Shown in pieces: positions 14,074-59,772 of a stretch of DNA of 64,000 nucleotides. The stretch comes from Candidatus Brockarchaeota archaeon. GTDB taxonomy: Archaea > Thermoproteota > EX4484-205 > JAAOZP01. The notes under the pieces are model-generated. The model did no database searches. It was given only the letters and a program-made list of their open reading frames with translations, and was not told the origin of the DNA. Each line of letters opens with the position of its first letter. The stretch's first letter is position 1. The stretch covers positions 4,507 to 68,506 of the forward strand of contig JAFNIX010000004.1 of assembly GCA_017601225.1 (NCBI GenBank), written 5' to 3'. Made by a program: the position numbers and the translations under genes.

Positions 14074-15123
14074 TTAATTCGTATTGTTTTTCTCCATCCT
14101 TAGGATTGATGTTATCTGAGAAATATCAAATTTTGGTGTTCCATCAACATAGCAGAGGCCGAAGCATGCGTGAACAGGGCTGTTTTCGCTTTTTATTTTC
14201 CTATGAAACGGGTTATCCCGCCACTCATATATGAATACACCATGTATTCTACCCGAATAATCCCTGTTCACCCTACTTATTAGTTCAGATAATTGCAGAT
14301 AGACTTTCATAAAGTTGGAGGGATCCTGAATTGGAATTATCTTTCTTCCGTCCCGGGTCTCAATATTGGGTGTTCTCCCGTCCTTTTTTGCCTTTACAAT
14401 CTTAAAGCCTATGCCAGCATGAAGCCCAGTCTCGCTAATTATAAGTGGCTTATCGTATTTTTCAAGCTCGTTTAAAAGGCTGCGGAGCATAAACTCAAAC
14501 CTTGCAAGCCTCAAATTAGCTTCCCTCGGACTTGTGAGAAACCTCTTATTGTGTTCAAACGCGTCCAGGGTAAACCAGTCTTTTGCTTCCATAGGATAAC
14601 AGTTAATGGAGTACACGTCTGCTGCCTCAATAATTGGCACAACCCATTCCTTTATTTTGCCTTCGGCATCTAAACCAAATCCCTCCATAGCGTAAGTAAC
14701 AGGCGTATTGAACCCGTGTTCCTGAATAAGTTTTCTGGCTGCAGTAATCAGGTTTGAAATGGCGAATGCTAGTCTTCCCGTAAACCTCCAGTTAGGCGGT
14801 TCACCCTTCGTGTACTCTCTAAGCTCGTTTCCTAGACATATTGCAGTTAAAGGGATGTTCAATTCATGCGTACCAAGGATATGCTCCTGCTTAAGTTCAC
14901 TATGCCAGTCTTTTAGAAGATTTTCAGAGTTTACGTGTATCCCTGCATACAAACTCATATTCAGCTTCTTTATTATTCCTGCGATTCTTTGGGAATGCTC
15001 ATAGTTGTAGGTTCTGACCGCGTTAATACCCATCTTCGCAGCCTCGCTAAAACCCGAGTTCTCAATCCTTCTGACACCGGAAGGGTGGAACCATGCACCG
15101 ATAATCATGTTTCTACACCACAA
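14074..15123 (-). CDS. Clan GH-A (beta/alpha)8 glycoside hydrolase, family unassigned
   Basis: 349 aa. CLGNELRE is a candidate acid/base motif and LIISETGLH a candidate nucleophile motif, spaced as in clan GH-A enzymes. The gene lies 41 nt downstream of module gene A1 on the same strand. The start may instead be the internal ATG at 15108. Confidence 0.5.
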   Translation of the reverse strand: MWCRNMIIGAWFHPSGVRRIENSGFSEAAKMGINAVRTYNYEHSQRIAGIIKKLNMSLYAGIHVNSENLLKDWHSELKQEHILGTHELNIPLTAICLGNELREYTKGEPPNWRFTGRLAFAISNLITAARKLIQEHGFNTPVTYAMEGFGLDAEGKIKEWVVPIIEAADVYSINCYPMEAKDWFTLDAFEHNKRFLTSPREANLRLARFEFMLRSLLNELEKYDKPLIISETGLHAGIGFKIVKAKKDGRTPNIETRDGRKIIPIQDPSNFMKVYLQLSELISRVNRDYSGRIHGVFIYEWRDNPFHRKIKSENSPVHACFGLCYVDGTPKFDISQITSILRMEKNNTN

Positions 15124-15164: not shown

Positions 15165-17042
15165 CTAATATGGAAGTATCCACATGTTTTTCAAAATCAA
15201 ACCGATAGCCACGCTAATCGTTATAATTAAACCAACCCCTAGGGAGATCCCGGCAACTATCGAATTCCTATAGCGTGACCAGAAGTCTCGCCCTATTCTT
15301 TTTTCAACCAGCTTTCCGATAATCATTCCTATCAGTAGGGAAACGGAGTAGGGTAATGGTTGCGCCGCGCCCGCAGACAGAGCTATGACAGGAATGCTTA
15401 GGCGCGTCACCTCGGAGACGGCGAAAACAATAAGGCCAATCACGAAGAATCCGGCTACGAGAAGCGGGTTTAGCAGGCCAGCAGCCCCCCCTGAAGCGAA
15501 CAGGCGGAGCCATCTGGCCTGAATCGGCCAGTAAATATTCGTACCAGGGTAAACGTTAGACGGCATTGGCGCGATGTTCCAGAAGGCAGACACGTAGATG
15601 AAGCCAACCAGCCAGACTATTGGGAAAACCAGGAAGTATGTCTTATACATGGTTTTTGAAGGAGTGTTGCAAAGTTGACCGATCTTCATGAAGTAGCAAA
15701 AATCAGCCCCAAAAGTAGTGATAATAAGTGGACCGAACCATATTCTGGTATCATTAAACCCTGTTGCACCCATGTATGCTAGAAACGCCCCCTCCTTAAG
15801 GTATGGAACATCCTGCTTAAAACCAACGATCCCATAGGATCTCGTGCCCACTAAAGTGTATATGAATGACCATCCGGATGAAAGAGCAAGAAGCAAAAGT
15901 AGAAAAGTAACCGGGAGACCAGGTATAAGGTAGGCGAAAAGAGCAACCGACCCAACGGTTGAGCCGAAGAACAGTGCTAGAAGAAACCATAATGGGTAAT
16001 TGTCAACACCCTTGCCGACCCTTATTCTCAAGAGGCTTTTTAGAGAGTTAATGAAAATTTGAGGATTTCTTAATATTGGGAGGATGCCTGCAGCTATGGC
16101 TAAGCCTATTATTGGGCTTACCCAAAGCTCGAAAAGCGAATGCTGGTATATTGTTGAAAGAGAGGAGCCGGGAGACCAATAGCTGAACAGCCCCCTAAGG
16201 GCCGGCAACGGTGATTCGGAACTGGTGAGAAAACATCCGAAGAAGTAGAAAGCCATTCCGCTTGCAAACAAGGTTAAGACGACGCTTACTGGAAGTATGA
16301 ACCCTGTCGCGATGCTTATTATATCAGTCGCAACGCCGAACGAAGCACCAGGTAGAAACGGCTCTATTCTGCTAGTAAGATCAACCCATGGAATTGGGAT
16401 AGTCGTATAACCCATTACTAGCGCCGGCAAATAGACCAGAAGCCCATAGACGAAACCCAGCGCCGCAGAAAGTGTGAAAATCCTGGTTCTCCTAGGATCA
16501 GTTCTCTCTGAAAGAGTCAGGATTGCATCAGCCCCTACTTGAGCCGTTGGAAACGGCAGATCCTCAACCTCGATGAACATGCTTTTCGCAATGAAAGCCA
16601 TAGACATATCTGCAAGTTTCCAAAGTAGTCCTCCTATGAGAGATATGAGAATAGGCGGAATGAAGCCAGGGGAGAAAAACGTTCTGTAGATAAAGAGATT
16701 TGTCTCTGGAGAAGGAGCCCACCAATCCGGTATGTTCAACCCATAGGCATATGGGCTAGTCCTGAACCAAGTGGCGTATATCCACTGTATGCTTATAACC
16801 TCGAAGCAGATTTGATGCCCCATCATCCATATTAGGAATGCCTCTTGCCTGCTTAACGGGTGTCCAGCCAAAAATCCGAGTTCAACAGCAAACAGGAGCA
16901 GAGTATACTGGATCCCGGAGCTAAGGCTACCGCCGCTGTAAAGCTGGTACCATATTGCCGCCGGCAAAAGAACCACTATGCCGTAGAGTATCACTAAAAA
17001 CGATCTCCAGGTTAACCCTGAGACGCCTTTAGCACTATTCAT
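15165..17042 (-). CDS. Module protein A1: large polytopic membrane protein (OPT-superfamily-like transporter candidate)
   Basis: ORF 15165..17099. It is hydrophobic throughout, with at least 12 predicted TM segments. It carries the motif FIEVEDLPFPTAQVGADAIL. The ATG at 17042 overlaps the stop of the upstream 1520 aa gene (ATGAATAG). It aligns along its full length with the 639 aa ORF at 53171..55090. Confidence 0.6.
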   Translation of the reverse strand: MNSAKGVSGLTWRSFLVILYGIVVLLPAAIWYQLYSGGSLSSGIQYTLLLFAVELGFLAGHPLSRQEAFLIWMMGHQICFEVISIQWIYATWFRTSPYAYGLNIPDWWAPSPETNLFIYRTFFSPGFIPPILISLIGGLLWKLADMSMAFIAKSMFIEVEDLPFPTAQVGADAILTLSERTDPRRTRIFTLSAALGFVYGLLVYLPALVMGYTTIPIPWVDLTSRIEPFLPGASFGVATDIISIATGFILPVSVVLTLFASGMAFYFFGCFLTSSESPLPALRGLFSYWSPGSSLSTIYQHSLFELWVSPIIGLAIAAGILPILRNPQIFINSLKSLLRIRVGKGVDNYPLWFLLALFFGSTVGSVALFAYLIPGLPVTFLLLLLALSSGWSFIYTLVGTRSYGIVGFKQDVPYLKEGAFLAYMGATGFNDTRIWFGPLIITTFGADFCYFMKIGQLCNTPSKTMYKTYFLVFPIVWLVGFIYVSAFWNIAPMPSNVYPGTNIYWPIQARWLRLFASGGAAGLLNPLLVAGFFVIGLIVFAVSEVTRLSIPVIALSAGAAQPLPYSVSLLIGMIIGKLVEKRIGRDFWSRYRNSIVAGISLGVGLIITISVAIGLILKNMWILPY

Positions 17043-20000
17043 GGTTCCCAGCCTCCTTAAATTTCTCCAGCATTTCCCGTGCTTTCTCAATCGCTTCAAG
17101 CTTATCTGCCGCTGGAAGGGTCCTCCAAATGAGTAGTTGTTTGCGAAGACTGTCTACAAACCTGTATCCTGCTTTCTGCCACATGTAAAGCGTGCCGGAT
17201 TTTCTATTTAGACGGAGAGCGTATTTGAAATTGGTTTCGCCAGCATCTTTGCGAATCAGTATTTCGGCCCTCTGAGAGATGCCCATGTCGAAAGGAGGCA
17301 GAGTAGTATCAACGATTATGATCTTCTCAACAGCCCCGTCTTCAACTCTTTCAGACAATGCGAGATTGTCCGTTCTAAAGGTGCCTACCTCCGCCGTTGT
17401 GAAAGCCTTGAAAAATTCAACTAAAAACATTATTATTCCGTCGGTTTCCCCGATCGAGGAGGTGAAGGGTAAAGGTATGTCCCAGACATCGCCCTGAGGC
17501 TTGGTTTTAAGCTTCCAAACCCTCTCCACCGAGGGTGTGACCAGCCTTGAAGCCTTCAGAACAGGATAGATGGAGGACGCTATCGTGGTTAATATCGATA
17601 TTGAGACTGTTAAAATTACGATTGTTGAGGAGAAGTTAGGGTAAAAGTCTTTCGGCATCAATTGAAACATGTAGAGGAGGTTGGTTCCCACAAGCCCTGC
17701 AACGTATCCTAGGACTGCAGCAACAACGGAGTATACTAGCGTTTCCGACAGAAAGAGACCGGCAACATGCAGGGGTGAGAGCCCCAGTGAGCTGAAAATA
17801 CCGATCTCTCTAACCCGTTCATAAACGTTGGCCAGCATCGCGTCCAAGATTGCTAGAGCAGCAATAATAATTGGGAAAACAAGGTGCTCAATCCCCCTGA
17901 GGGAGAACCATGCTTGCTGCTGGAAATTGGCCCTTTGACCCCCGGCGCTCGCGTAAACGACAAACGGCAACCTGTTAGACAGGCTTTGGGCAATTTCGAA
18001 AACCCGGCTTTGATTACGGAATTTAGCGACTATCTGCATTGGGGGATAGCCTAATCTTTCTGCCAGCGAGTATGGAACTATAAGTACTAATTGAGCGGGA
18101 ATATGCTGGATGCCGCCCGCCCATTGGACCCCCCAGTTGATAGGCGTCACCTCGTGCAGATTTAAATCAACCAGGCTGTTAAGAGTGGAAGAATCGAAGA
18201 TTCCGATGATAGTCAGATTGGCTTCACCGACATAAATTGTGTCGCCTATCCTCCAGCCGCAGGTGTCCGCAGCTTCCCTCGGTATTATGGCCGTGTAAGA
18301 ACTTAATAGCTGGGAGCAATTCGGAAGAGTAATGCCCTGCTCAAAGATAGGGTCTTCCGGCACAACTGCCAGCAAAGCCGAGAAGACGTATTGTGTTCTA
18401 GGCAGGTTATCCGTGATCCTAGTTACCCTTATCTTCGTCCCCGGAACCTGGCCTCCCAAGACCGACACGTAGCCGCTGGAAGTATAGATCCAGCTTCTTG
18501 GGCATATGACAGCTTCGTCCCCGATCTCCACTTTAAGAAAAGCCTCCAGATAAGATGGCAGGTACCTGAATTCACTTATCAGGATTCCGTCATAATAGGT
18601 TTTCCCGGGTTTCGGAATGGTTCTGACTATTGATATCAAGTATATGGATGTTAATGAAATAAGGGAGAACACTATCAATGTGATTGTTACAAGTGTAAGA
18701 GCAGTCCGCAGCCTTCTCTTCCGCATATTAGATACGCCCATTGAGAAAGCGATTAGAATCGCGCCAAACCGGCTTATCTCGGCGAAATGTTTGCCGATTA
18801 CCTCTTCTCTAAACGCCCTTATAAAGCCGGATATTCTGCCCCACAGTATTCCTACAATGGGGGTGACGAAAACTAGGATCGCTATGCCAACCAGCATTAT
18901 ATAGATGTTTGTTGCTAAGTGAAAACCAGGATGAAACCAGTAGAGTAGAAATGTGAAAAGCGCGAAGACTCCGCATGCATACAATATTCTCCGCATGCCG
19001 CTTCTCGGTGAAAACACGAGTTCGACAAGGAGTATTGAAAATGGAACTAAAAGTATGAAAAAGAAGAGGGTTGATGAAATTATTTCGAAAATTAGGCCCC
19101 TTGTAAACGTGTAAGCGTTTATCTCGCTCTGCCAAGCAGCGTAAGTAGCGTAGACCATGCGAGAATAGTTAAACCCGGCTTCTGCCGAGAAACATCTTAA
19201 AGCCTCGCTTAACAGATTGCCCGTATTTTTTGAGAACTCTAAAGCAGGAGCACTCGCAGCCAAGTAGCTTGAAGCCAAATGAAGCCTATACTTGTTCAAA
19301 AGATGAAAATCATTAACAAGCCTTAGAGGCGTGGCTAGGATAATTAATGTCTCACCCTGTTTCACCGAGAATCCTCTTCCTTCAAGAGTTTCTTCAGTGA
19401 TACTTTTTAAAACTCCTTGGGGGGAGGGAATTCCCGGACTGTAGATAATAACCTCAATAGGCACGTCTTCAGGTGCAAATATCATTGTTATGTCCTCGCC
19501 CTCAATGAAGCTGTCGCGAACATAGCCGTAGGACGTAGGTGGAGTATGACCGCGTGAATCCAGAATAGAAATGCTCCCGAGCATATTCACGGGTGGAATA
19601 AGGTTGAACAAGACTATTGAGCCACAGGGGAAGACTGGAAAATAGCGAGGTGCATCCGGGGTCCCGATACGCCCGCTGTCAACCTGGAATGAAATAGGGT
19701 ATACGTCGGATCTTTGCTGCCACAGCTCAGGAGCATATATAACGTTTCCATTCTTGTTGAAGACGAATGCCTCAACCATGACTTTTGGAACCGCGACCTC
19801 AGCAACACCCACGCCCAGCTGCTGCGCACCCGTATAGGTTGTCTCCGAAGGCAGCCCGTGAACCATAAAAACACCGTTCTCATCCGTTTTACACAAAGAG
19901 TAGAAATGTGGAGTATACCCGCTTTCAGTATAAGACAGGCGGACTGAAACCAGCGCGTGAGGCACTCCCTCAAACCATCCCTTCGCATAATCGTATGTAA

Positions 20001-21597
20001 CAATTTTCCCAGTTAAAGTAACGAAGCCGCCTGCGTTCGGCTGTAAAGCGTACCTCGTTGGTCCAATACCCCTGCTTCCGAAGTCAGGACCGTTTATCAG
20101 GCTTGACGCTAAGGCCGCTGCAAACATAACCTGTTTCTTAGTGTTTTCGAACCTTCTCTGAGAGCCGAGACTATTCTCATAGATGTCTGAAGGCGTGGAG
20201 CAGAAGGCTCTGAAAGAATTAGCGGTAGCTACTGTTATTCCAACCCCGCCCGCTAAAACATACGGTTCATGGTCGAAAGCCAGGTTAGTCGGCAAGTATA
20301 CTCTCCATTCTCTTACGCGTAAACCGTCTTCAACATTTATATCGAGGCCCAGATTCTGCAGAATGTTCTTAACCTCAGACTGCGACCCGAATAATCTATC
20401 ACGTAGCCAAGTATACCTTAGGAGAGAGGCCTCGAAGTAATAGTTGTACCCGCAGAAGAATAACCCTAGATCGCTCACGTCGGAAGCCAGGTCGAAGTTT
20501 ACCCATATGCTGATCTTATTGCCTATTTCCTCGAAGTGCTGCTCTACAAACTCTCTGGAGCCCTTTAACCCTCCGTAGTGAGAACCTATAGCGAGAAACC
20601 ATATGGTTCTCTCAGGAGGATTATCCTTAAACCAGGAAGCCAGCTCCATGATCATCGCAATGCCTATAGCCTCATCTGCTCCAGGAGCCACTCCAACTAT
20701 GTATGATTGCGAATCATAGTATGCACTTAAAATCACAATCTCTTCTCTCCTTCCGGGTATTACACCTAGAATATTCCAAGCCGGCTTTTCCTCCCAGGAA
20801 GCATTCAGCATAATTCTTACTTTAACCTCGCCTATTGTCTGAAGAGCAATCAGATTCTCCGCATCTCTTCTTGAAACCACGAGCCTAGGAATATTTAACG
20901 GGACGCCTAGGTAGTTGACTCCCCCTCTGAAAGCTAATCGTGGAGCATCCGGAAGCCTACCGTTTAAAGAACTTTGAACGTTATTGTAGATTTCCGGCTC
21001 AATAAATAGTACGGCTTTAGCGCCAAACATCACTGTGCGAATCCAGTTCCCGCTGTTTTCATAGTCCACAAGCACTATCTTATCATTAAGGTTCTTTCCT
21101 TCAAGCTCCGACAGGGATGCTTTCCCAACGTAGACTAGCCTCCCCTCAATACCCTCGGGAGGAGTCATACCCGGATTTAGACCCATCGGGTACATTGTTA
21201 AAACATTGTCAAGGGTAAACTGGATTGGAGATAATACTTGAACCCTTGACTCATGAACTACTGGGACGAGGACCGTGAAGTTTTCAAAATAACCGTAAGG
21301 ACCTGGTTTAAGACCATTTTTCACGAAGTTTTCATAGATGTATTTCGCTGCAGCTTCATAGCCAGGGTAGCCGGGGGTCCTGCATCTAAGGCTAGACAGA
21401 TACTTAACGTGCTCGCGAATCGCATCTGTGTTTATGATGTTTGCGATCTCGCTATTTTTAAAGGGCTGCAGCCCGTCTGCCTCAACTTGATAGGCAATGT
21501 TTAAAACGATTGTTGAACATAAGAGGAATATAATAGACAGGGGAATAAGTCTTCTCCTCAATACTGTTCGAAGCAGGACTCTTCCCCCTAGAGACAT
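17035..21597 (-). CDS. Module protein C1: signal-anchor + PA/M28-like (transferrin-receptor/GCPII-like) ectodomain + CarboxypepD_reg-like segment + 3 TM + MacB/FtsX-type permease + novel cytoplasmic tail
   Basis: 1520 aa. M28-like blocks: WNILGVIPG..VILSAYYDS..APGADEAIG..GSHYGGLKGSREF..VNFDL. PA-like block: GRLVYVGKA..DKIVLVDYENSG..GAKAVLFIE. FtsX TM1 block: NMRKRRLRTALTLVTITLIV. FtsX domain block: NVYERVREIGIFSSLGLSPLHVAGLFLSETLVY. There is no Walker A motif anywhere in the protein. Confidence 0.7.
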   Translation of the reverse strand: MSLGGRVLLRTVLRRRLIPLSIIFLLCSTIVLNIAYQVEADGLQPFKNSEIANIINTDAIREHVKYLSSLRCRTPGYPGYEAAAKYIYENFVKNGLKPGPYGYFENFTVLVPVVHESRVQVLSPIQFTLDNVLTMYPMGLNPGMTPPEGIEGRLVYVGKASLSELEGKNLNDKIVLVDYENSGNWIRTVMFGAKAVLFIEPEIYNNVQSSLNGRLPDAPRLAFRGGVNYLGVPLNIPRLVVSRRDAENLIALQTIGEVKVRIMLNASWEEKPAWNILGVIPGRREEIVILSAYYDSQSYIVGVAPGADEAIGIAMIMELASWFKDNPPERTIWFLAIGSHYGGLKGSREFVEQHFEEIGNKISIWVNFDLASDVSDLGLFFCGYNYYFEASLLRYTWLRDRLFGSQSEVKNILQNLGLDINVEDGLRVREWRVYLPTNLAFDHEPYVLAGGVGITVATANSFRAFCSTPSDIYENSLGSQRRFENTKKQVMFAAALASSLINGPDFGSRGIGPTRYALQPNAGGFVTLTGKIVTYDYAKGWFEGVPHALVSVRLSYTESGYTPHFYSLCKTDENGVFMVHGLPSETTYTGAQQLGVGVAEVAVPKVMVEAFVFNKNGNVIYAPELWQQRSDVYPISFQVDSGRIGTPDAPRYFPVFPCGSIVLFNLIPPVNMLGSISILDSRGHTPPTSYGYVRDSFIEGEDITMIFAPEDVPIEVIIYSPGIPSPQGVLKSITEETLEGRGFSVKQGETLIILATPLRLVNDFHLLNKYRLHLASSYLAASAPALEFSKNTGNLLSEALRCFSAEAGFNYSRMVYATYAAWQSEINAYTFTRGLIFEIISSTLFFFILLVPFSILLVELVFSPRSGMRRILYACGVFALFTFLLYWFHPGFHLATNIYIMLVGIAILVFVTPIVGILWGRISGFIRAFREEVIGKHFAEISRFGAILIAFSMGVSNMRKRRLRTALTLVTITLIVFSLISLTSIYLISIVRTIPKPGKTYYDGILISEFRYLPSYLEAFLKVEIGDEAVICPRSWIYTSSGYVSVLGGQVPGTKIRVTRITDNLPRTQYVFSALLAVVPEDPIFEQGITLPNCSQLLSSYTAIIPREAADTCGWRIGDTIYVGEANLTIIGIFDSSTLNSLVDLNLHEVTPINWGVQWAGGIQHIPAQLVLIVPYSLAERLGYPPMQIVAKFRNQSRVFEIAQSLSNRLPFVVYASAGGQRANFQQQAWFSLRGIEHLVFPIIIAALAILDAMLANVYERVREIGIFSSLGLSPLHVAGLFLSETLVYSVVAAVLGYVAGLVGTNLLYMFQLMPKDFYPNFSSTIVILTVSISILTTIASSIYPVLKASRLVTPSVERVWKLKTKPQGDVWDIPLPFTSSIGETDGIIMFLVEFFKAFTTAEVGTFRTDNLALSERVEDGAVEKIIIVDTTLPPFDMGISQRAEILIRKDAGETNFKYALRLNRKSGTLYMWQKAGYRFVDSLRKQLLIWRTLPAADKLEAIEKAREMLEKFKEAGNHE

Positions 21598-21625
21598 TCC
21601 CTAATCACCTTCATGCTCAACCCTG

Positions 21626-21640
21626 TTTAAAAATGTAAAT
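21626..21640 (-). promoter_or_regulatory. Shared 15-nt promoter motif ATTTACATTTTTAAA (minus strand) upstream of C1
   Basis: The plus strand reads TTTAAAAATGTAAAT. On the minus strand the TATA-like TTTTTAAA lies 29-36 nt upstream of the C1 ATG (21597). The identical 15-mer recurs at 23788-23802. Confidence 0.45.
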
Positions 21641-21642
21641 AG

Positions 21643-21649
21643 AAAAAAA
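21643..21649 (-). terminator. T7 tract downstream of B1 (possible archaeal oligo-T terminator)
   Basis: AAAAAAA on the plus strand gives TTTTTTT on the coding strand, 9 nt after the B1 stop codon. It lies immediately before the promoter-like motif of C1. Confidence 0.3.
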
Positions 21650-21657
21650 GGAAGTGA

Positions 21658-23742
21658 TCAACCTGGAACAGCAGGAGTCCATTCTATCCCTGCTTGTGCA
21701 ACCGGCAGGAATATGTCGGTAACTATTGACACTATGAATGCACCTAGGAATATTCCTATCGCTAGCGGGACGCCTTGTTCCTCATAGAGTTTTGAGCCGC
21801 CTATTCTAAACGTTAGAAACTTCAAAACCCATGCTACGAGAAGATAGCCCCAAAGCCAGTGTGCGGGCTGACATAAGCCTATGACAAGACCCACCGGATT
21901 CAATGGAAACCTGGCGAATGCAACCCTAGCCCAAAGAAGAACTCCGGCGAGGAAGAAGCCCGCAGCCCAGTTTGCCAGCTCAAGACCTAGCAGGTCCTTG
22001 TTCCAGTTAAACCAGGAACAGCCCTGAGCTTGGTTGAAAGCAGCGTTAAAAATGGCTTCTTGACTCCACCATGCAGGACTGACCCACTGGCTGTACAGGG
22101 TGCCACCGTATCCGAAGCCCTTGTCGATCCCAATCATGTATGTAAAGACCAGCCAAAGCGGGAGACATATGAGGACGGCGAGGACCATGGCCACAATGGT
22201 TGAAATCGCCATAGCCCTATTATTGGTTTTAGTTAGAGTCGCCAATTTGAAGGCTTCGAGCTGAGCGCTCTGAGGCGTGCCTGCTCCACCCCAGTACCAA
22301 GTGTAATGCCCAGTCACCACGTAACCCATGTTCCAAGCCGTGTAGGCACCTGGCCCGTATGCGGCTTGAGACGCTGCCGAGGCTTGGGGCCCGACAAGCG
22401 AGTATAGCCCTGCCTGAGACAATAGCGTAGCTAAAACCTCCTGGGACTCCCAAGGTATGTCTCCCTTCGCTATGCTTTCACCCCTGATTCTTGATGTCGC
22501 CACATACTGGAGACACGTATATACTACGATTATGCCGGCCGCCCAGACTGGAATATAGACAACCACCATAAGCACAATGAGCAGCACTGTTGAAATTATG
22601 AAGGCAAGCCACAGAGTTCTATATGAGAAAGGCTCGTTAGACTCATCAAGCACCTTCTTGCCAAACGCGTTCTTAAGCGTAGAAACAATGTATTTCCTCG
22701 CGTAGACAAGAAGCCAGAGGCCTAAGCCAATCATTGCACCCCATCCGATCATCCCACCGGATATGGGAGCTATCGCACATGACGCCATGTTGTGCCACGC
22801 GCCTCCGGAGCTTCCCCAAGGTGCTTGCAGCGTTGCGTACCCAGCCCAAGCGGAAACCGCCGGAATAATATCGGCAAATATAAACCAGGCGACGACTGCA
22901 GTGAATAGAACGTCAAGTGGCGCGAGATACCATAAGCTTAGCTGAGACGGGGATACGCTGAAGAACCAGCTTGAATTCGGCAGCGCGACCTCCAGTGCTT
23001 CGATGTGGTAGGTCTGCCACAGGTTCCATCCTCTTCCGGGTGCAAGAGCATCTATAAGGTTACCAAGCATCAGTAAAAATCCCACCAGCAGACCTATCAG
23101 AATCTTTTTAACGCGGGGTTTCTGGGTTACGCCCATGCCTAGGTTTATCAGCTCATTAGTAATGTTCAAGTATGGGAACGGTAGCTTCTCAATGTCTATC
23201 CACAGTTTCCGAAGTATCATCCCCATCGAAAGCATGAAAACCAATAGAACTATAGTGAAGATCATCCAGAATCCTAACGCCGGAGCCCATGCTGCCCAGG
23301 GAACAGAAGTTCCCCCGGTGAAAGCAGCTAAAGCAGCCTCCATGTCTTTTACTCCGAAGAGCGGGCTCATCTCTAATGCTCCAGGTATTGTGGACACCCA
23401 GTATCCCATCCACCACCATTGTTTTTCCCAGGCCGTGTTGAAAATCGATATTGAAAACGGTACTGCCACAGACCATGCGAAGCCAAGACTTACCGTCACC
23501 ATGGCGAAAACGATGGCGTATTCGTCTGCCCTGAGCCTCAGGGAACTGAGAAAGTAGCCAAGTATTGCCAGCACAAAAAGTACTAGGAATGCTCCCGCGT
23601 TCATGCCCCACAGTGTCAGATTAACGTTTGTCCAGTCTATTGATAGCTGTATCAGCATCATCACTATGGAGATGACTAGGCCGACTATGAATCCTCTAGA
23701 CTTTAAAAATTCGCTGAGGAGGAATTCTTTTTCCTCACTCAT
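21658..23742 (-). CDS. Module protein B1: large polytopic membrane protein, distant relative of A1
   Basis: 694 aa and hydrophobic throughout. It carries the motif LWIDIEKLPFPYLNITNEL. It aligns along its full length with the 660 aa ORF at 59773..61755, for example at LAPLDVLFTAVVAWFIF versus LAPLDILSSIVIWLFIF. Confidence 0.6.
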   Translation of the reverse strand: MSEEKEFLLSEFLKSRGFIVGLVISIVMMLIQLSIDWTNVNLTLWGMNAGAFLVLFVLAILGYFLSSLRLRADEYAIVFAMVTVSLGFAWSVAVPFSISIFNTAWEKQWWWMGYWVSTIPGALEMSPLFGVKDMEAALAAFTGGTSVPWAAWAPALGFWMIFTIVLLVFMLSMGMILRKLWIDIEKLPFPYLNITNELINLGMGVTQKPRVKKILIGLLVGFLLMLGNLIDALAPGRGWNLWQTYHIEALEVALPNSSWFFSVSPSQLSLWYLAPLDVLFTAVVAWFIFADIIPAVSAWAGYATLQAPWGSSGGAWHNMASCAIAPISGGMIGWGAMIGLGLWLLVYARKYIVSTLKNAFGKKVLDESNEPFSYRTLWLAFIISTVLLIVLMVVVYIPVWAAGIIVVYTCLQYVATSRIRGESIAKGDIPWESQEVLATLLSQAGLYSLVGPQASAASQAAYGPGAYTAWNMGYVVTGHYTWYWGGAGTPQSAQLEAFKLATLTKTNNRAMAISTIVAMVLAVLICLPLWLVFTYMIGIDKGFGYGGTLYSQWVSPAWWSQEAIFNAAFNQAQGCSWFNWNKDLLGLELANWAAGFFLAGVLLWARVAFARFPLNPVGLVIGLCQPAHWLWGYLLVAWVLKFLTFRIGGSKLYEEQGVPLAIGIFLGAFIVSIVTDIFLPVAQAGIEWTPAVPG

Positions 23743-40630: not shown

Positions 40631-41317
40631 ATGACCGGGACCATCATTAAAACTGTTGATCTAAGAAAAACCTACATGCAGGGCAAGATTCCGGTTGAAG
40701 CTCTGCGTGGCGTAAACCTAGAGGTGGGGGAGGGCGAGTTTCTTTCCGTATTAGGTCCTTCGGGAAGCGGAAAGTCGACTCTTCTAAATCTAATAGGGGC
40801 TTTAGACAAGCCTACAGGGGGAAGGCTTTTCATCGAAAACATTGATGTGTCAGCCTTGAATGAGAATCAGCTTGCGGATTTAAGAATGAGAATCGGCTTC
40901 GTCTTCCAATTCTTCAACCTTATTCCAAGGTTTACAGCAAGGGAGAATGTTGAACTACCAATGTCAATAGCCGGCTTAAGCAAGGGTGAGAGGAGAAAAC
41001 GCGCTGAGGAACTCTTGCAGATGGTTGGCTTAGCAAGCAGGATGAACCATAAGCCGACGGAGCTCAGTGGGGGGGAGCAGCAACGCGTCGCAATTGCCAG
41101 AGCCCTGGCCAACAACCCTAGATTCCTACTTATGGATGAACCTACTGGAAACATAGACTCTAAAAATGCTTATGAAATAATAAGGCTTGTAAAGAGGCTT
41201 AACGAGGATAAGGGTGTAACCATAATAATGGTTACTCATGATCAGCGTTTGGCTGAGGAAGCAAAGAGGATAGTGTACATGCTTGACGGCACGATTGTCA
41301 TGGAGAAGGTGAGGTGA
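40631..41317 (+). CDS. MacB/LolD/FtsE-type ABC ATP-binding protein
   Basis: 228 aa. Motifs present: Walker [10 protein letters not shown], signature [15 protein letters not shown] and Walker [11 protein letters not shown]. Confidence 0.9.
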
Positions 41318-53170: not shown

Positions 53171-55090
53171 CTAGAATGGTTTAGCCGTTATCGCTCTCCC
53201 CATTATGGTGATGGCGACGGCGGCTGCTACTGCGAGCGCGATCCCGCAGAAAGTTCCCGCGATTATCACTCCTCGCCGCACAACCCACTTATCCTTACCC
53301 ATTCTTCTCTCAAGCCATTTTCCTATCAGGGCTCCGATCAATGGTGGAAGCGTGTAAGCAGGAATGTTTTGAAAGCCGTATAGGAAGCCTATTGGGGAGA
53401 AGTATTGTGTCGGGAAACGGGAGGAGGCGACGACCATTATGAAGGACAGGACGCTTGAGATGGCTATCACGTCAACCTTGAAAATCTCGATTGACCTGGA
53501 GACCCATAGGGAGAAGTAGAGGGCTGAAATAGGCCAGGAGTAGCTGGCATAGGGGTAGAAGGCAGACGGTATTGGCGTCATAGCCCAGAATATTGAAACA
53601 TACAGTAGAGATAGGAGAATGGCTATTAGGAAGAATATGAGGTATGCCTTGTAGTAGTCGAGAGGCCTGACCTTCAGCAGCTTAGCCACGTAGACCCTGT
53701 GCGTAATTATTCCAGCGCTACTCGTCACATGCGTTGGAACCACCCATGGGATCACGTCCCCAGGCCTTGTGAAAGAGACGAAGAACGCCTCTCTAATGTA
53801 TGGAATAGTGACAGATAACCCGGTTTCAGCCGTCGCCCTGGCTGTCAATATGCCTTGAATAAACGGTACTATCGTCCAGGTCACCACCCAGACGAACCAT
53901 AGTTCTGGGGCGAGGGAGACTGAAACAAGCAAACCTCCTATAGACCCGGCGGTGATTAAAGCAATTATCCAGCTGAAAGGCAAGTATGATGTTTTAAGCT
54001 GCTCTGCTGAAAGATGCCTCAGAGACAGGATTGCCCTCGCAATGTTTTTGGCGCCGACTGCAAGTATCCCGAGAGCAATCCCGAGTGTTAAACCTACCTG
54101 TGGGCTTGCCCACAGGTCGTAGATTGCTCTCTGCCACCACCATTGGATTGACGCTCCATAGGTCCATTCTCTCTGCCACATGCTGAAGTAGGGGTGGTCT
54201 ATCCTGAGTGCTATAGAGTTTCCGAAAACCCAGACTGCTACAGACCCTATGAACATCCAGACTGCAGCGTTAAACGGGATTAGCCAGCCCACCATGTATT
54301 GGGCAATATCTGTTCCGACCGCGAAAACGGCTCCCGGCAGGATTCTTTCAATCCCCGTTGTCAAGTCCACCCAAGGATACGGTATGACGGTTATGGCCCT
54401 GCCCAAGAAAATCGAGGTTATGTTTGGAATCCCGTAGATGGCGAACTCATAGATGAAGCTTATCACAGCGGCGAACGAGAAGTACATTATTTTCTCAGGT
54501 GTTCTTTCAGTAAGGGTTGAGATTGCTTGGTAGTCTATGGGTGCAACTGGGAACGGGAGCTTCTCTATCTCTATGTAAAGCATGTTCGTTATGAAGGAAA
54601 CACCGTAGTCTATCATCAGCACGCAAACGTTAACAGCTAGAGAGATCGATATCGGGATTATCCAGTCTGGGGAGAGGAAAGTCCTGTGAAGCGGACCGTA
54701 GCTTCCCAGCTCAGGAACATACCATGTTGGAAGCTTTTCAGCAATACCGTAGAGGATGGTGTATGGGGCAGACCTATAGTAATACCTTATGAGGAAATCT
54801 CCGAACATTCCTCCGCCGACGAACCATAGGGCTATGGCTTGAAGCATGAAGTATATTATGTAAGCTTCTTGGGACGTTATGTATCTCTTGACGAGCCTCC
54901 CGGCCTCTGTGAAAAGAAGTATTGTAACGAAAACCGGGATGAACCTTTCGGTCCCGCCTAAAGAGCCGACGGCCCATCCTAAATAGATTATCGCTGGCAC
55001 GATTACCACAAGCCCAAATAATACTGCGGAGACCGATACGATCGTGAGCCCAGGGATGAAGGCTTCTTTTTCACGTGCAGCCTCTTCCAT
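53171..55090 (-). CDS. Module protein A2: large polytopic membrane protein, paralog of A1
   Basis: 639 aa. The motif YIEIEKLPFPVAPIDYQAISTLTERT aligns with FIEVEDLPFPTAQVGADAILTLSERT of A1. PYPWVDLTTGIERILPGAVFAVGTDI aligns with PIPWVDLTSRIEPFLPGASFGVATDI. The start overlaps the stop of C2 (TAATG). Confidence 0.6.
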   Translation of the reverse strand: MEEAAREKEAFIPGLTIVSVSAVLFGLVVIVPAIIYLGWAVGSLGGTERFIPVFVTILLFTEAGRLVKRYITSQEAYIIYFMLQAIALWFVGGGMFGDFLIRYYYRSAPYTILYGIAEKLPTWYVPELGSYGPLHRTFLSPDWIIPISISLAVNVCVLMIDYGVSFITNMLYIEIEKLPFPVAPIDYQAISTLTERTPEKIMYFSFAAVISFIYEFAIYGIPNITSIFLGRAITVIPYPWVDLTTGIERILPGAVFAVGTDIAQYMVGWLIPFNAAVWMFIGSVAVWVFGNSIALRIDHPYFSMWQREWTYGASIQWWWQRAIYDLWASPQVGLTLGIALGILAVGAKNIARAILSLRHLSAEQLKTSYLPFSWIIALITAGSIGGLLVSVSLAPELWFVWVVTWTIVPFIQGILTARATAETGLSVTIPYIREAFFVSFTRPGDVIPWVVPTHVTSSAGIITHRVYVAKLLKVRPLDYYKAYLIFFLIAILLSLLYVSIFWAMTPIPSAFYPYASYSWPISALYFSLWVSRSIEIFKVDVIAISSVLSFIMVVASSRFPTQYFSPIGFLYGFQNIPAYTLPPLIGALIGKWLERRMGKDKWVVRRGVIIAGTFCGIALAVAAAVAITIMGRAITAKPF

Positions 55091-58000
55091 TATTTCTCAC
55101 CCACTAGGCTACGCTCCCTAGCCATACGTATGTATTTCTCCCGGTCCTCCGGATTGAGGACATTCCATATCAGCATCTGCTTCCTCACCTCATCGATAAA
55201 GGGGTAGTTGAACCTGACCCATGAGTCGTAGGGCCCGGACACCCTAGTTAGATTCATTGAGATGAGGAAGTTCTGCTCCGTCTTACTCTTCAATATCACT
55301 ATGTTCATATCCTGCTTTATGTTCTGCTCGAACGGTGCCAGCCAGACTCTCGACTTTACAGCAATCCCAGACTCTATCTTGTTAACCTCAACGCTTTCAA
55401 CGGTGAAAACCCCCGCCCGCTCTATCCTCTTGTTCCAGAGATACTCGTGGAGGAAAACAGCCATTCCCGCAGCCCTATCATCCTCTTTTATGCGGAAAGG
55501 TATCGGTATGTCCCATGAGTCTCCCTTAGGCTTAGTCTGGAGACGCCACTTCCTCTCTAATGACGGGGTCACTGTGACGGAAACCTTGTAGAACGGGTAG
55601 AGCGATGCTGCCAGAACCAGCACGATCACCAGCCCGACAGCTATCATGACGAATGACGACGTGTAGTTAACAGGGAGGTTTATCAGGCCTATTTTCCTCG
55701 TTAAGTACGAGGCGGAGATACCCCCGAGATAGCCCGTCATCGATCCTACGATAGCGTATATGATGTTCTCACCGAAGAACATTAAGCCCACTTGAACCGG
55801 TGCTAGGCCTAGGCTGCTGTATATGTAGCCCTCCCGTATTCTCTCCATGACTCCTCCCAGAATTGTCGACATAGTTATCAGCCCCGCAATGATCATGGGT
55901 ATTAGAATGAACTGGAAGCCGAACAGCGAGATAACGTTCTCCTTGGAGAACCGGTAGACGGTGCCGTTATAAGTCAGATAGATGTTTAACCCTTCGAAGG
56001 CGGAGAAAACATCGCCGCACTTCTCGTAGAGTTCCTCGAGCACCATCCCGTCTGCAGGTATGAAAACACTCGTTAAACATGATTCTGGAATCAGTTCAAC
56101 TAGGCCAGCCGGCACGAATATTACGGATCCTGGGCTTAACGCCGCCTCAGCACGGGGAGGCGTTCTCTCGTTTGAAAGAACGTATGTGTCCATGGGTAGG
56201 ACGTCGACGAAGCCGTCCGCATCCTTCACGTAGGCTAGAACTGCAGTAGTGTTAAGTATGCCTGTTACTTTTAAGCGGAAACCGTTAACCCAGACATATT
56301 CGCCTGTCTTCACCCCCAGGCTTTCCGCAAGACTGTTAGGCAACAGTGCTGAGAAAACCTCTTCATCTTTAAACATGGATCCTTCTAACAGTATTTTTTC
56401 GAACTCGTTGAAAGATGCTTTCAACTCCACAGAGCTTATTCCTACAGCAGCGTAGATCAAAGCCTTACTTTTCTCAGAGGATATGACTATTGTGCCAGCA
56501 GTCCCCTCTCCAGGAGTAGAAGGAAGATAAACCCAGTACCTCGGAGCGTAAAGCGTCTTGCCTGATATGTAGATTGACACTAGGTCAATCAGCTTCCTGT
56601 TTAACGGCGCGAAGTTGGCTGTTCTCAGCAACACCCCGTTGTAAGTAACCTCGGTGGGAGTCGGAGTGACTCTTAAAGCCCTTATCTCCGTCACAGAAGT
56701 CAGAGAAGAAAGTGAGAAGCTTATGATCACTATGCACAGCATCGTTAAAACTGTTCTAAACTTACGTTTCTTCAAGTTGCCTATTCCTATAGATACGGCT
56801 GAAAACGAAACGTCGAATCCGCTTCTCTCGAGGAAGTGTGCACCAAGAACTTCTCTCCTCAACCTCGAAAGCCCTGTGGAGAAGTTGGAGAATAGGAAGA
56901 ACATTACTGGAATAACTAAGGCAACTATCAGTGTTCCTATGAATATTGCAGGCACGTTTACCGCCAGCCCGAAACCCGGGTGGAACACTGTTAAAAGCAA
57001 CGCCACGGACAGCGCTACCGCAAGAGTAAGGGCGACGCTTCTAAAGCCGCTGCTCAAATTGTAAACCAAGGATGAAAACAGCAGGATGAAGGGTATTGCT
57101 AAAGCGAATACGAGAATTATGCTCGTAACCGCGTCGCGGACAACGCTCAAAGAGCTTTGGTAAGCCTTGTTTGAGAACCCCCAAGCCATTAAAGCGCTCG
57201 TCAAGAACCCAGTGTAATCCTTTTTTGAAGCCATTTGAAGAAGTGTCTGGTTGAACATTATCGCATAATTCAGATTCTCCATCGTCTTTGGGTCCAGAAC
57301 TTGAATATCTGCTTGAGCCAGATACCTGCCATACGCTAATGTCAACATCTCCATGAACATGCTAGGCATTCCGCCCTTTACCAGCAGCCTGTCCCCCTCC
57401 CTAGCGAAATAATACCCGTATCCATCCTGGTTCTGCAGGGTCACATTAGTATAGACTGCAACCGTTTTAGCCATAGATGTGCTTTTAACAACGAAGCCGA
57501 ACCTGGTGCGGGGCGGGGCGTAAACCTGTGCAACCGATAGGATGGGGTCGAACTCGTAGCCGAATGAGTCGAGAACGGAGTACCCAGGTATCTGCATCAC
57601 CATCACGCTTATCGTTAGCGGGGTCTCGTAGCCACCGTAATTCCTGAGCTGCGCTGAATAAGCATTCGTGGTTCCAAACATTGAGCTTGGAGAGACTGCA
57701 GCCTGCAGAGTGTCCGGGTCGGTTAAATCGAACATGACAGCGCTCCCACATTTAAACACAACGTTCCTAGTGAATTGTTCAGGCGAAACTATCGTTACGC
57801 TTGAAGGGTATGTTCCGGCACCATGCTGCCCCCTGTCTGGAGCATAGATGATTCGCCCCTCATCGTCAATCAGATAACTCTGTATTGGGGTTTGCAACGC
57901 GGTTGTCGCCTCAGGATATGGCCTTAGACCCCTGAACACTGCGAAGCCTAAAGAATCCGATTTCGAAAACATTAGCGTGAACGGGTCCAACGTGCTTCCC

Positions 58001-59607: not shown

Positions 59608-59742
59608 TATTGAAAGTTTATATCAAGACTGATTTAAACTTTACGGCTTTAAAACCCATTCTCAAACGGAATTTTCTCAAAAGCATATGGAGGGCCCTAG
59701 AAACGAGGTTTAATCTGATACAGAGATAAATAAGCCGTATGG

Positions 59743-59750
59743 TTCCATAA
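59743..59750 (-). terminator. T8 tract downstream of B2 (possible archaeal oligo-T terminator)
   Basis: AAAAAAAA on the plus strand gives TTTTTTTT on the coding strand, 23 nt after the B2 stop at 59773. It lies within the 165-nt spacer before C2. Confidence 0.35.
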
Positions 59751-59772
59751 ACAAAAAAAAGAGGGTTTGAAT

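What the first reader, a model, noticed from the sequence alone, without database searches (positions are those of the whole stretch)
17035..21597. Architecture of C1: hydrolase-like ectodomain fused directly to a MacB/FtsX mechanotransmission permease, with no ATPase domain
The segment order read from the sequence is as follows:
- N-terminal hydrophobic anchor (aa ~17-37).
- The start of an M28 domain.
- An inserted PA domain (aa ~140-262).
- The rest of the M28-like domain (aa ~274-460).
- A CarboxypepD_reg-like beta segment (..CKTDENGVFMVHGLP..).
- About 250 aa of unknown ectodomain.
- Three TM helices (aa ~855-935).
- An amphipathic/basic stretch plus FtsX TM1 (aa ~957-989).
- A ~247 aa extracytoplasmic domain.
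- The three-TM FtsX domain (aa ~1237-1352).
- A 168 aa tail.
Counting helices, both large soluble domains fall outside the cell and the tail falls inside, so the topology is self-consistent. In bacteria, FtsEX/MacB-type modules use ATP-driven conformational change to control separate extracytoplasmic hydrolases (EnvC, PcsB, CwlO, RipC). Here a hydrolase-like domain is covalently fused to the permease. No Walker A (GxxGxGK[ST]) is present anywhere in the protein.
Basis: partly seen in the sequence, partly recalled or inferred. Interest (0 to 1): 0.85.

Follow-up and report, generated by a model that had tools for sequence, protein, structure and literature searches.

The report
Pseudo-peptidase fused to FtsX permease
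A 1,520-residue archaeal membrane protein joins an outward-facing M28-peptidase-like domain that lacks the catalytic residues to a MacB/FtsX-type permease. It belongs to a large, unstudied family found across bacteria and archaea, almost always beside OPT-like membrane proteins and with its ATPase encoded separately.

Summary
Pfam, PDB sequence matches and Foldseek on confident AlphaFold2 models confirm a PA-domain M28 fold and a LolC/LolE/MacB-type permease.

Three points change the interpretation:
- The M28-like domain is non-canonical. None of 231 full-length relatives keeps the Glu-Glu pair or the full zinc-ligand set; a His replaces the catalytic Glu in 193 of 231.
- Lacking an ATPase domain is normal for FtsX and LolC/E. 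Related operons encode a LolD-type ATPase plus a minimal 4-TM FtsX. The ATPase next to C1 is ABC-2 type and is not conserved; a LolD-type ATPase lies 19 kb away.
- C1 is not a one-off. Its C-terminal tail marks 858 protein clusters (E<=1e-10) and at least 120 species genomes in roughly 15 phyla. The window holds a second paralogous copy.

The gene is translationally coupled to an OPT-like membrane protein, and a homologous DUF6785 protein sits upstream. Bacterial loci often add a PqqD-like peptide-binding protein. I found no literature on this family. I read it as the large subunit of an uncharacterised type VII ABC system, probably handling peptides. That function is inferred.

The parts
17035..21597 (-). 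C1 gene, 1520 aa: pseudo-M28/PA ectodomain, beta domains, stalk, 3 TM, FtsX core (4 TM plus extracytoplasmic domain), conserved cytoplasmic tail
21493..21549 (-). N-terminal membrane anchor (aa 17-35), preceded by 5 K/R in aa 1-16
20083..21477 (-). PA-domain-containing M28-like ectodomain (aa 41-505). Site residues are Y293, D295, D308, H340, Y341, D369, H443 in place of the canonical H, D, D, E, E, D, H.
19342..20082 (-). Beta-rich ectodomain region (aa 506-752). The first module is weakly CarboxypepD_reg-like.
19069..19341 (-). Helical stalk (aa 753-843). AF2 helices 756-777, 783-802 and 811-859; the last runs into TM2.
18844..19068 (-). Three extra TM helices (aa 844-918). The nearly invariant H889-P890 (HPGF) lies in the short outer loop.
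18628..18843 (-). Basic cytoplasmic loop with an amphipathic helix (NMRKRRLRT; R964 invariant) plus FtsX TM1 (aa 919-990)
17902..18627 (-). Extracytoplasmic domain between FtsX TM1 and TM2 (aa 991-1232), MacB_PCD-like
17563..17901 (-). FtsX three-TM block with the coupling-helix motif VYERVREIG (E1260 invariant, R1261 at least 90%), aa 1233-1345
17038..17562 (-). Conserved cytoplasmic tail (aa 1346-1520). Predicted beta-alpha-beta4-alpha-alpha; invariant P1355, P1377, G1468, W1473, R1485, W1491. No Pfam or PDB relative. It is the family's signature.
15165..17042 (-). OPT-like polytopic membrane protein (625 aa from the ATG at 17042). Its ATG overlaps the C1 stop (ATGAATAG), with AGGAGG upstream.
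21658..23742 (-). DUF6785+DUF6784 polytopic membrane protein (694 aa), homologous to the OPT-like partner
53171..61755 (-). Second paralogous triad: DUF6785 (59773-61755), M28-FtsX 'C2' (55090-59607; 1505 aa; 27% identity to C1 over the full length), OPT-like (53171-55090; TAATG stop/start overlap)
40631..41317 (+). The only LolD/MacB-type ATPase in the window, a candidate trans partner (unproven). It is followed by its own 425-aa MacB_PCD/FtsX permease at 41319-42596.

Best explanation
C1 is the large membrane subunit of an uncharacterised but widespread type VII (MacB/LolCE/FtsX-like) ABC system.

Shown:
- An FtsX core (4 TM plus an extracytoplasmic domain, with an intact coupling helix) is extended N-terminally by a membrane anchor, an outward-facing PA/M28-fold domain that lacks the canonical M28 catalytic and zinc-binding residues, beta-sandwich modules, a helical stalk and three extra TM helices.
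- It is extended C-terminally by a family-specific cytoplasmic alpha/beta domain.
- The gene is translationally coupled to an OPT-superfamily-like polytopic membrane protein and is preceded by that protein's paralogue (DUF6785/DUF6784).

Inferred:
- A LolD-type ATPase supplied in trans docks on the conserved coupling helix. In many relatives this ATPase is encoded in the same operon with a minimal 4-TM FtsX half that may be the heterodimer partner, as LolC pairs with LolE.
- ATP binding and hydrolysis then move the stalk and extracytoplasmic domains by mechanotransmission.
- The pseudo-aminopeptidase/PA head acts as a ligand-holding module rather than a protease. The ligand is most likely a peptide.
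- The head works together with the OPT-like proteins, which would provide the membrane passage.

The direction of transport (uptake or export) and the substrate are not established.
For: Architecture and topology.

Family-wide conservation:
- 62-sequence alignment.
- 230 of 231 full-length proteins have all five modules.
- The tail gives 1283 hits at E<=1e-3 and 858 at E<=1e-10 among 50%-identity representatives. Nearly all full-length hits are 1414-1860 aa with the tail at the C-terminus.
- At least 120 species genomes match the tail motif, and all 120 are confirmed by the tail HMM.

Non-canonical M28 site: 0 of 231 have E-E or the full ligand set; H340 in 193 of 231; D295 in 227 of 227 aligned (alignment to 2ek8).

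Coupling helix: E1260 invariant, R1261 at least 90% conserved; it aligns with the MacB and YtrF coupling helices.

Partners:
- An OPT-like or DUF6785 gene lies directly downstream in 74 of 92 loci that have enough sequence.
- The two partner families are homologous (hhalign 99.8%, E 5.5e-28).
- Stop/start overlaps occur in both window copies.

ATPase in trans:
- LolD-type ATPase plus small FtsX in L001, L004, L008 and many genome chunks.
- The small FtsX has 4 TMs, no extracytoplasmic domain, and a canonical ERFREIG motif.

Peptide theme: M28/PA fold, OPT superfamily (Pfam OPT E 1.1e-5 over the whole model in the window; unmarked OPT hits in L004 and L007), and a PqqD-like peptide-recognition protein in 17 related loci.
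Against: - No small FtsX, PqqD-like or CxxC protein is found in the 64-kb window.
- The only LolD-type ATPase in the window has its own adjacent permease, so C1's energy source in this genome is unproven.
- Most archaeal loci seen (L002, L006, L007, L009, L010, and both window copies) show no dedicated ATPase within 10 kb.
- Physical contact between C1 and the OPT-like proteins is inferred from gene order only.
- Conserved D295, D308/E, H340, D369/H and E444 could still form a single-metal site, so loss of all catalysis is not proven.
- The OPT assignment in the window is just under Pfam's cut-off (24.8 vs 25.8 bits).
- The peptide substrate is inferred from what these domain families usually do, not tested.
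Confidence: 0.6

Rival explanations
1. The M28-like head is a working metallo-hydrolase with a re-modelled, probably single-metal, site. C1 would be a membrane-tethered exopeptidase that trims extracellular peptides for uptake by the adjacent OPT-like transporters. The FtsX part would anchor or gate it.
For: - A new set of residues is conserved at the old active site: D295 invariant, H340 in 193 of 231, acidic residue at 308 in 148 of 231, D/H/E at 369 in 187 of 231; E444 in 55 of 62.
- The fold is that of secreted PA-M28 aminopeptidases.
- The neighbours belong to the OPT superfamily.
Against: - The general-base Glu and the adjacent zinc-ligand Glu are absent in every one of 231 members.
- Positions equivalent to E152 and H256 vary freely (W/H/Y/F/A/G and S/G/A/H). 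That is not expected for a catalytic metal site.
- Known M28-fold proteins that have lost these residues (transferrin receptor, among the Foldseek hits; nicastrin and nicalin from general knowledge) are binding modules.
Confidence: 0.15
2. The FtsX module works without any ATPase. It would be a structural scaffold, or be driven by the ion-coupled OPT-like partner, and the cytoplasmic tail would replace the nucleotide-binding domain.
For: - There is no Walker A in C1.
- No dedicated LolD-type ATPase is seen within 10 kb in most archaeal loci.
- The WOR-3 locus L005 has only the fusion plus the OPT-like gene.
- The tail is family-specific and highly conserved.
Against: - The coupling helix that contacts the ATPase in MacB and LolCDE is among the best conserved stretches (VYERxREI; E1260 invariant).
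- A LolD-type ATPase and a small FtsX are in the same operon in many bacterial loci and one Asgard locus.
- Separately encoded ATPases are the rule for FtsX and LolC/E.
Confidence: 0.1
3. An FtsEX-like regulator of envelope remodelling (cell wall, pseudomurein or S-layer), with the fused domain replacing EnvC, PcsB, CwlO or RipC.
For: Same permease fold, and the same logic of an extracytoplasmic hydrolase-fold partner. YbbAP-TesA (PMC12646458) shows that type VII systems do recruit hydrolases.
Against: - No cell-division or wall-synthesis genes occur in any of the contexts examined.
- There are several paralogous copies per genome: two in this window and three within 25 kb in L002.
- The family occurs in organisms with very different envelopes, both archaea and diderm bacteria.
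- The domain lacks catalytic residues.
Confidence: 0.05
4. A defence-related membrane effector controlled by a cyclic-nucleotide sensor. This is suggested by the PADLOC family name 'CARF_m8--CARF_LolE_TM'.
For: C1 aa 838-1456 matches PADLOC model PDLC01991 at E 7.3e-74. The tail alone matches model positions 544-680 at E 5.9e-7.
Against: - None of the proteins tested reaches model positions 680-810.
- The tail's predicted secondary structure (beta-alpha-beta4-alpha-alpha) is not Rossmann-like.
- No CRISPR or other defence genes are seen in the contexts examined.
- The source paper (PMC7498327) could not be read.
Confidence: 0.05

Closest known systems
LolCDE / MacB (type VII ABC transporters, mechanotransmission)
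   Same: - Four-TM FtsX core, N-in and C-in.
- Large extracytoplasmic domain between TM1 and TM2.
- Amphipathic N-terminal helix.
- Conserved coupling helix.
- Best Foldseek hits are 9rld, 5gko, 5lil and 7arh; phmmer hits MacB 5lil.
- Related operons carry a LolD-type ATPase and a second, different FtsX half, as in LolC/LolE.
   Different: - About 970 extra N-terminal residues: anchor, PA/M28-like head, beta modules, stalk, 3 TMs.
- A 175-aa family-specific cytoplasmic tail.
- The partner FtsX half has no extracytoplasmic domain.
- No MacA-like adaptor or LolA-like acceptor was seen in the contexts examined.
- Conserved linkage to OPT-like proteins.
- Present in archaea.
FtsEX with EnvC / PcsB / CwlO / RipC, and YbbAP-TesA (PMC12646458)
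   Same: A type VII ABC module paired with a hydrolase-fold protein on the outer face. In YbbAP-TesA the hydrolase sits on the periplasmic domains of the permease.
   Different: - Here the partner is covalently fused.
- It has the M28/PA fold.
- It lacks the family's catalytic residues.
- The contexts examined show no link to division or lipid metabolism.
PA-domain M28 aminopeptidases (2ek8, BSAP 6hc6, PaAP 8ack) and the non-catalytic M28-fold receptors (transferrin receptor; nicastrin and nicalin from general knowledge)
   Same: Same fold, with the PA insertion (E 1.8e-24 to 1e-19). Like the transferrin receptor, the zinc and catalytic residues are not kept.
   Different: It is fused to an ABC permease, and a different set of residues is conserved at the former active site (D295, H340, E444).
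OPT oligopeptide transporter family (PF03169) and DUF6785/DUF6784 (PF20581/PF20580), for the partner genes
   Same: The window's downstream protein aligns over the whole OPT model (2-619 of 623; E 1.1e-5). Homologues in L004 and L007 have unmarked OPT hits. The DUF6785 proteins are homologous to them.
   Different: The score in the window is just below Pfam's cut-off. The shared E-x-LPFP motif and the obligate linkage to an FtsX fusion are, to my knowledge, not features of characterised OPT transporters. No solved structure is detectable by sequence.
PADLOC 'CARF_m8--CARF_LolE_TM' (PDLC01991) and 'CARF_m8--CARF_Beta-galactosidase_LolE_TM' (PDLC01990)
   Same: Strong match over TM2-4, the FtsX core and most of the tail (E 7.3e-74). 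This shows that relatives of the permease-plus-tail module have been catalogued before. The second model's name suggests variants with a different hydrolase-fold ectodomain.
   Different: The last 130 or so model positions are not matched by C1 or by any relative tested. No CARF fold is shown in C1, and no defence context is seen.

Membership tests
Type VII ABC permease (FtsX/MacB/LolCE fold) | C-terminal three-TM FtsX domain, plus TM1 preceded by an amphipathic helix; N-in and C-in | tested here: met
   Pfam FtsX at 1241-1351, E 1.5e-13; phmmer to MacB, YtrF and LolF; hydropathy and charge distribution; Foldseek to LolC/E and MacB, E 1e-9
Type VII ABC permease (FtsX/MacB/LolCE fold) | Large extracytoplasmic domain (MacB_PCD: Porter/Sabre) between TM1 and TM2 | tested here: met
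   242 aa lie between TM5 and TM6. MacB_PCD is only E 0.0056 in C1 but is on record for about 30 homologues. Foldseek alignments of 460-486 columns to whole LolC/E and MacB chains, and a hit to 5c59 (MacB periplasmic region) with TMt 0.50.
Type VII ABC permease (FtsX/MacB/LolCE fold) | Coupling helix between TM2 and TM3 that docks the ATPase | tested here: met
   VYERVREIGIFSSLGLSP aligns with the MacB and YtrF coupling helices. E1260 is invariant and R1261 at least 90% conserved in 62 sequences.
Type VII ABC permease (FtsX/MacB/LolCE fold) | A cognate LolD/FtsE/MacB-type ATPase | tested here: inconclusive
   Present in the operon in L001, L004 and L008 and in 26 of 120 genome chunks. In the window the adjacent ATPase is ABC-2 type. 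The only LolD-type ATPase is 19 kb away with its own permease.
Type VII ABC permease (FtsX/MacB/LolCE fold) | ATP-driven mechanotransmission | not testable with these tools
   Needs biochemistry or structures in different nucleotide states
Peptidase family M28 (active co-catalytic zinc aminopeptidases) | M28 alpha/beta fold, here with the PA insertion | tested here: met
   Pfam E 4.8e-13; Foldseek to 2ek8, 3iib, 6hc6 and 8ack, E about 1e-21 to 1e-24
Peptidase family M28 (active co-catalytic zinc aminopeptidases) | Five zinc ligands: His, Asp, Glu, Asp/Glu, His (AAP numbering H97, D117, E152, D179, H256, from general knowledge) | tested here: not met
   C1 has Y293, D308, Y341, D369, H443. 0 of 231 relatives have the full set.
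Peptidase family M28 (active co-catalytic zinc aminopeptidases) | Catalytic general-base Glu (first Glu of the E-E pair) | tested here: not met
   It is H340 in C1: His in 193 of 231 and never Glu-Glu
OPT oligopeptide transporter family (partner gene 15165-17042) | Match to PF03169 above the curated cut-off | tested here: inconclusive
   24.8 bits against a cut-off of 25.8, but aligned over the whole model. Homologues in L004 and L007 have unmarked hits.
FtsEX-type hydrolase regulators | A separate coiled-coil or hydrolase partner, and a cell-division or wall context | tested here: not met
   No such genes occur in 10 long loci or in the recurrent-gene census of 130 loci
CARF_m8 (PADLOC-DB; Makarova et al. 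2020 census) | A CARF (Rossmann-like) sensor domain | tested here: inconclusive
   C1 matches model positions 72-648 of 810, and the tail alone matches 544-680. The predicted secondary structure of the tail is beta-alpha-beta4-alpha-alpha. The source paper is not held.

The most novel reading that the evidence does not exclude
The fusion protein, its one or two OPT-like paralogues, a minimal FtsX half, a LolD-type ATPase, a PqqD-like peptide-recognition protein and a roughly 290-aa CxxC protein together form a previously unrecognised envelope machine. It would be shared by many bacterial phyla and by Thermoproteota and Asgard archaea. In it, a type VII ABC mechanotransducer would be physically coupled to an OPT-superfamily channel, and ATP-driven movements of a catalytically dead aminopeptidase head would capture, hand over or release a peptide (possibly a ribosomally made, modified one) at the outer face of the membrane.
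Probability: 0.3. Interest if true: 0.85.

Novelty: new variant of a known kind. Interest (0 to 1): 0.62.

Why it matters
Type VII ABC systems are known from a handful of bacterial machines: MacAB-TolC, LolCDE, FtsEX, BceAB, HrtBA and YbbAP-TesA. I am not aware of any assigned role for them in archaea.

This family has several features that make it worth following:
- It is large: 858 clusters at 50% identity with E<=1e-10.
- It spans both domains of life.
- The extracytoplasmic partner is built into the permease itself.
- It is tied by gene order to OPT-like membrane proteins that have no known connection to ABC systems.

If the components form one complex, it would be a new way of coupling ATP hydrolysis to a secondary-transporter-like channel. 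It would also give a function to two Pfam DUFs (DUF6785 and DUF6784). The pseudo-M28 head is a prokaryotic parallel to the transferrin receptor, nicastrin and nicalin.

Cultured carriers make the system experimentally tractable: Fundidesulfovibrio putealis, Maridesulfovibrio sp. FT414 and Abditibacteriota IAD-21.

Tried and rejected
- The adjacent ABC ATPase (25502-26290) as C1's motor: rejected. It is DrrA/ABC-2 type and pairs with the 12TM_1 protein. It is absent upstream of DUF6785 in the 56-58% identical relatives L009 and L010.
I replaced it with a hand-built degenerate DNA pattern for the tail motif. The pattern hit only C1 and C2 in the window, against 0 expected by chance.
- Sequence-profile searches of the tail, the OPT-like family and the DUF6785 family against PDB: nothing significant. 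Pfam on 16 tails: nothing.
- The roughly 800-850-aa genes divergent from DUF6785 in L002, L004 and L007 as a conserved component: rejected. They are not similar to each other, and the L007 one is an M28-less relative of C1.
- Literature searches for DUF6785, FtsX+M28, FtsX-like permease+M28, and PqqD+FtsX+OPT returned no papers. The CARF census paper could not be read.
- The 349-aa downstream gene as a glycoside hydrolase: only a by-eye motif resemblance, with no Pfam or PDB hit. Left as a note.
- The third fold search was not used. Models cannot be cut into domains, so the tail could not be searched on its own.

Full report
**The object.** Window 17035..21597 (minus strand) is one ATG-initiated ORF of 1520 aa. 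A Kyte-Doolittle scan finds eight TM segments: 17-35, 844-862, 871-889, 900-918, 972-990, 1240-1258, about 1278-1305, and 1325-1343. Lys/Arg is concentrated in aa 1-16, 863-870, 919-971 and the last 177 residues. By the positive-inside rule the N-terminus is cytoplasmic, aa 36-843 and 991-1232 are outside, and the tail is inside. No Walker A motif is present.

**Domain identities.**
- Pfam gives Peptidase_M28 (275-433, E 4.8e-13) and FtsX (1241-1351, E 1.5e-13).
- phmmer against PDB sequences aligns aa 144-369 with the PA-containing aminopeptidase 2ek8 (E 3.6e-11). It aligns the last three TMs with MacB 5lil, YtrF and LolF, and more weakly aligns the basic amphipathic helix before FtsX TM1.
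- AlphaFold2 models built on a 62-sequence alignment are confident: aa 1-860 has pLDDT 87.7 and pTM 0.85; aa 560-1520 has pLDDT 82.6.
- Foldseek places the N part with PA-M28 aminopeptidases, glutamate carboxypeptidase II and transferrin receptor (E 1.8e-24 to 1e-19). It places the C part with LolC/LolE, MacB, HrtB, YbbP, YtrF and BceB (E 1e-9 to 1e-4).
- The CarboxypepD_reg assignment is only suggestive (E 0.031).

**The 'hydrolase' is not a canonical M28 enzyme.** In the alignment to 2ek8, the first zinc-ligand His is Tyr (SAYYDS) and the Glu-Glu pair is His-Tyr (GSHYGGLKGS); the bridging Asp is kept. I checked this in 62 homologues and then in 231 full-length family members. None has Glu-Glu or the full ligand set. 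The position of the catalytic Glu is His in 193 of 231. The positions of the second Glu and the last His vary freely. D295 is invariant. The domain is either a binding module, like the transferrin receptor, or uses a different and so far unknown chemistry.

**'No ATPase domain' is the normal state for this fold.**
- FtsX, LolC/E and YbbP all use separate ATPases.
- The coupling helix VYERVREIG is among the best conserved stretches of the family, and E1260 is invariant.
- In Fundidesulfovibrio putealis (L001) and a metagenomic relative (L008), a 224-237-aa FtsX and a LolD-type ATPase lie immediately upstream of the fusion.
- In a Hodarchaeales MAG (L004), a 200-aa FtsX and two LolD-type ATPases lie 5 kb upstream.
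- NCBIfam scores these ATPases at 223-233 bits on the LolD model.
- The small FtsX has four TMs, almost no outer loop and a canonical ERFREIG coupling helix. This suggests a LolC/LolE-like heterodimer.
- In the window, the ATPase at 25502-26290 scores best on drrA (200.6 bits; FtsE 101.2 bits) and is followed by a 12TM_1 protein. Relatives at 56-58% identity lack this pair, so it is most likely an unrelated ABC-2 transporter.
- The only LolD-type ATPase in the window is at 40631-41317, next to its own MacB_PCD/FtsX permease and a rhomboid. Which ATPase serves C1 in this genome remains open.

**Conserved partners.**
- The gene after C1 encodes a 625-aa polytopic protein. Its ATG overlaps the C1 stop (ATGAATAG) and is preceded by AGGAGG. 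It aligns over the whole Pfam OPT model, just below the cut-off.
- The gene before C1 is DUF6785+DUF6784.
- The two partner families are homologous (hhalign 99.8%, E 5.5e-28, 598 aligned columns) and share an E-x-LPFP motif.
- The same arrangement recurs in Bathyarchaeia (three copies within 25 kb), Alkanophagales, Hodarchaeales, WOR-3 and others.
- The window has a second copy at 53171-61755, with a 1505-aa paralogue 27% identical to C1 over its full length.

**Size and range of the family.**
- The first word-indexed search gave 90 proteins.
- I then wrote a degenerate DNA pattern for the tail motif G-x4-W-x6-F-x3-h-R-x-Q-x-L-h-W (h = hydrophobic). It hits only C1 and C2 in the window, with 0 expected by chance.
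All 120 were confirmed by a tail HMM, and the other modules were present wherever the 8-kb chunk reached them.
- The record titles name Latescibacterota, Poribacteria, Armatimonadota, Abditibacteriota, Gemmatimonadota, Planctomycetota, Verrucomicrobiota/Lentisphaerae, Omnitrophota, Desulfobacterota, Nitrospiraceae, Thermofilaceae, Bathyarchaeia and Hodarchaeota.
- A filter-only phmmer search of 1.84 billion representatives with the tail alone gave 1283 hits (858 at E<=1e-10). Nearly all full-length ones are 1414-1860 aa with the tail at the C-terminus. The tail has no Pfam or PDB relative by sequence.

**Gene-order census**.
- Of 92 loci with at least 1.5 kb downstream, 48 have the OPT-like gene and 26 the DUF6785 gene directly after the fusion.
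- Recurrent gene orders are FUSION > OPT-like > CxxC-protein > PqqD-like > small FtsX > LolD-ATPase, and small FtsX > LolD-ATPase > FUSION > DUF6785 > OPT-like.
- The PqqD-like assignment is above Pfam's cut-off (PF05402, E 1e-10). PqqD-type domains are the peptide-recognition elements of RiPP pathways (general knowledge).
- None of the CxxC, PqqD-like or small-FtsX genes is present in the window.

**PADLOC.** C1 aa 838-1456 matches 'CARF_m8--CARF_LolE_TM' at E 7.3e-74, and the tail alone matches model positions 544-680. No relative tested reaches positions 680-810. The predicted tail secondary structure (beta-alpha-beta4-alpha-alpha) is not Rossmann-like. I could not read the source paper. 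I take this as evidence that relatives of the permease-plus-tail module have been catalogued before. It is not evidence that C1 has a CARF domain or a defence role.

**Interpretation.**
- Shown: the architecture, the topology, the loss of the canonical M28 site, the conservation of the coupling helix, the family's size, and its gene-order partners.
- Inferred: (i) a LolD-type ATPase, with or without a small FtsX half, drives the module; (ii) the head is a ligand-holding domain; (iii) the ligand is a peptide, because M28/PA, OPT and PqqD are all peptide-handling families; (iv) the OPT-like proteins form a complex with the fusion.
- The closest characterised analogue for 'type VII ABC plus hydrolase-fold partner' is YbbAP-TesA (PMC12646458). 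There the partner is a separate, active enzyme.
- I found no paper on this fusion or on DUF6785.

**Verdict.** This is a real, well-supported architecture and a new variant of a known kind (type VII ABC). It is more interesting for its conserved partners and its breadth than for the absence of an ATPase domain.

Noticed in passing
window 53171-61755 (-): A second, paralogous triad: DUF6785 (59773-61755), M28-FtsX fusion (55090-59607; 1505 aa; 27% identity to C1) and an OPT-like gene (53171-55090). The fusion and the OPT-like gene share a TAATG stop/start overlap.
   Followed up: yes
window 23850-26290 (-): A DrrA/ABC-2-type ATPase (25502-26290) plus a PF09847 '12TM_1' membrane protein (23850-25496) lie directly upstream of the DUF6785 gene on the same strand. 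The pair is not conserved in relatives L009 and L010, so it is probably an independent transporter.
   Followed up: partly
window 14074-15123 (-): A 349-aa soluble protein lies 41 nt downstream of the OPT-like gene. A gene 70% identical sits in the same position in L009. It has no Pfam, NCBIfam, PADLOC or PDB hit. By eye, the motifs LGNELREY and ISETG resemble clan GH-A glycosidases (unverified).
   Followed up: partly
window 40631-43995 (+): A LolD/MacB-type ATPase (40631-41317), a canonical 425-aa MacB_PCD/FtsX permease (41319-42596) and a rhomboid-domain protein (42589-43995) sit in an overlapping, same-strand arrangement. Two ABC-2 transporter pairs flank them, at 38656-40616 and 44191-46016.
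   Followed up: partly
related loci, e.g. L036 4186-7491, L041 1882-4756, L111 4027-6880, L004 3-941: Two recurrent accessory genes occur next to the fusion/OPT-like pair. One is a roughly 290-aa soluble protein with a CxxC motif and a C-terminal Cys-His (18 loci, no Pfam hit). The other is a roughly 120-aa PqqD-like protein (17 loci). They are usually followed by a small FtsX and a LolD-type ATPase.
   Followed up: partly
L007 4420-6966 (-): An 848-aa relative has the extra TMs, the FtsX core and the tail but only about 190 aa of ectodomain and no M28. It is encoded divergently near a full-length fusion. Other relatives (P0061, P0077, P0084) also lack a recognisable M28 domain, so the ectodomain appears exchangeable.
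   Followed up: partly
C1 aa 886-893 (window about 18919-18942): A nearly invariant H-P (consensus HPGF) lies in the short outer loop between extra TM3 and TM4, and an ERLxF motif lies at the cytoplasmic end of TM2. These are conserved features of the three extra helices and have no known counterpart in MacB or LolCE.
   Followed up: no
window 21598-21660: The C1 upstream gap has a T7 run just after the DUF6785 stop and a TTTTTAAA box about 37 nt before the C1 ATG. C1 plus the OPT-like gene may therefore form their own archaeal transcription unit (by eye only).
   Followed up: no
window 26408-29227: A uroporphyrinogen decarboxylase-family gene (26408-27385, +) and an aldehyde:ferredoxin oxidoreductase (27398-29227, -) flank the cluster. 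URO-D-family genes also flank the Alkanophagales locus L006.
   Followed up: no
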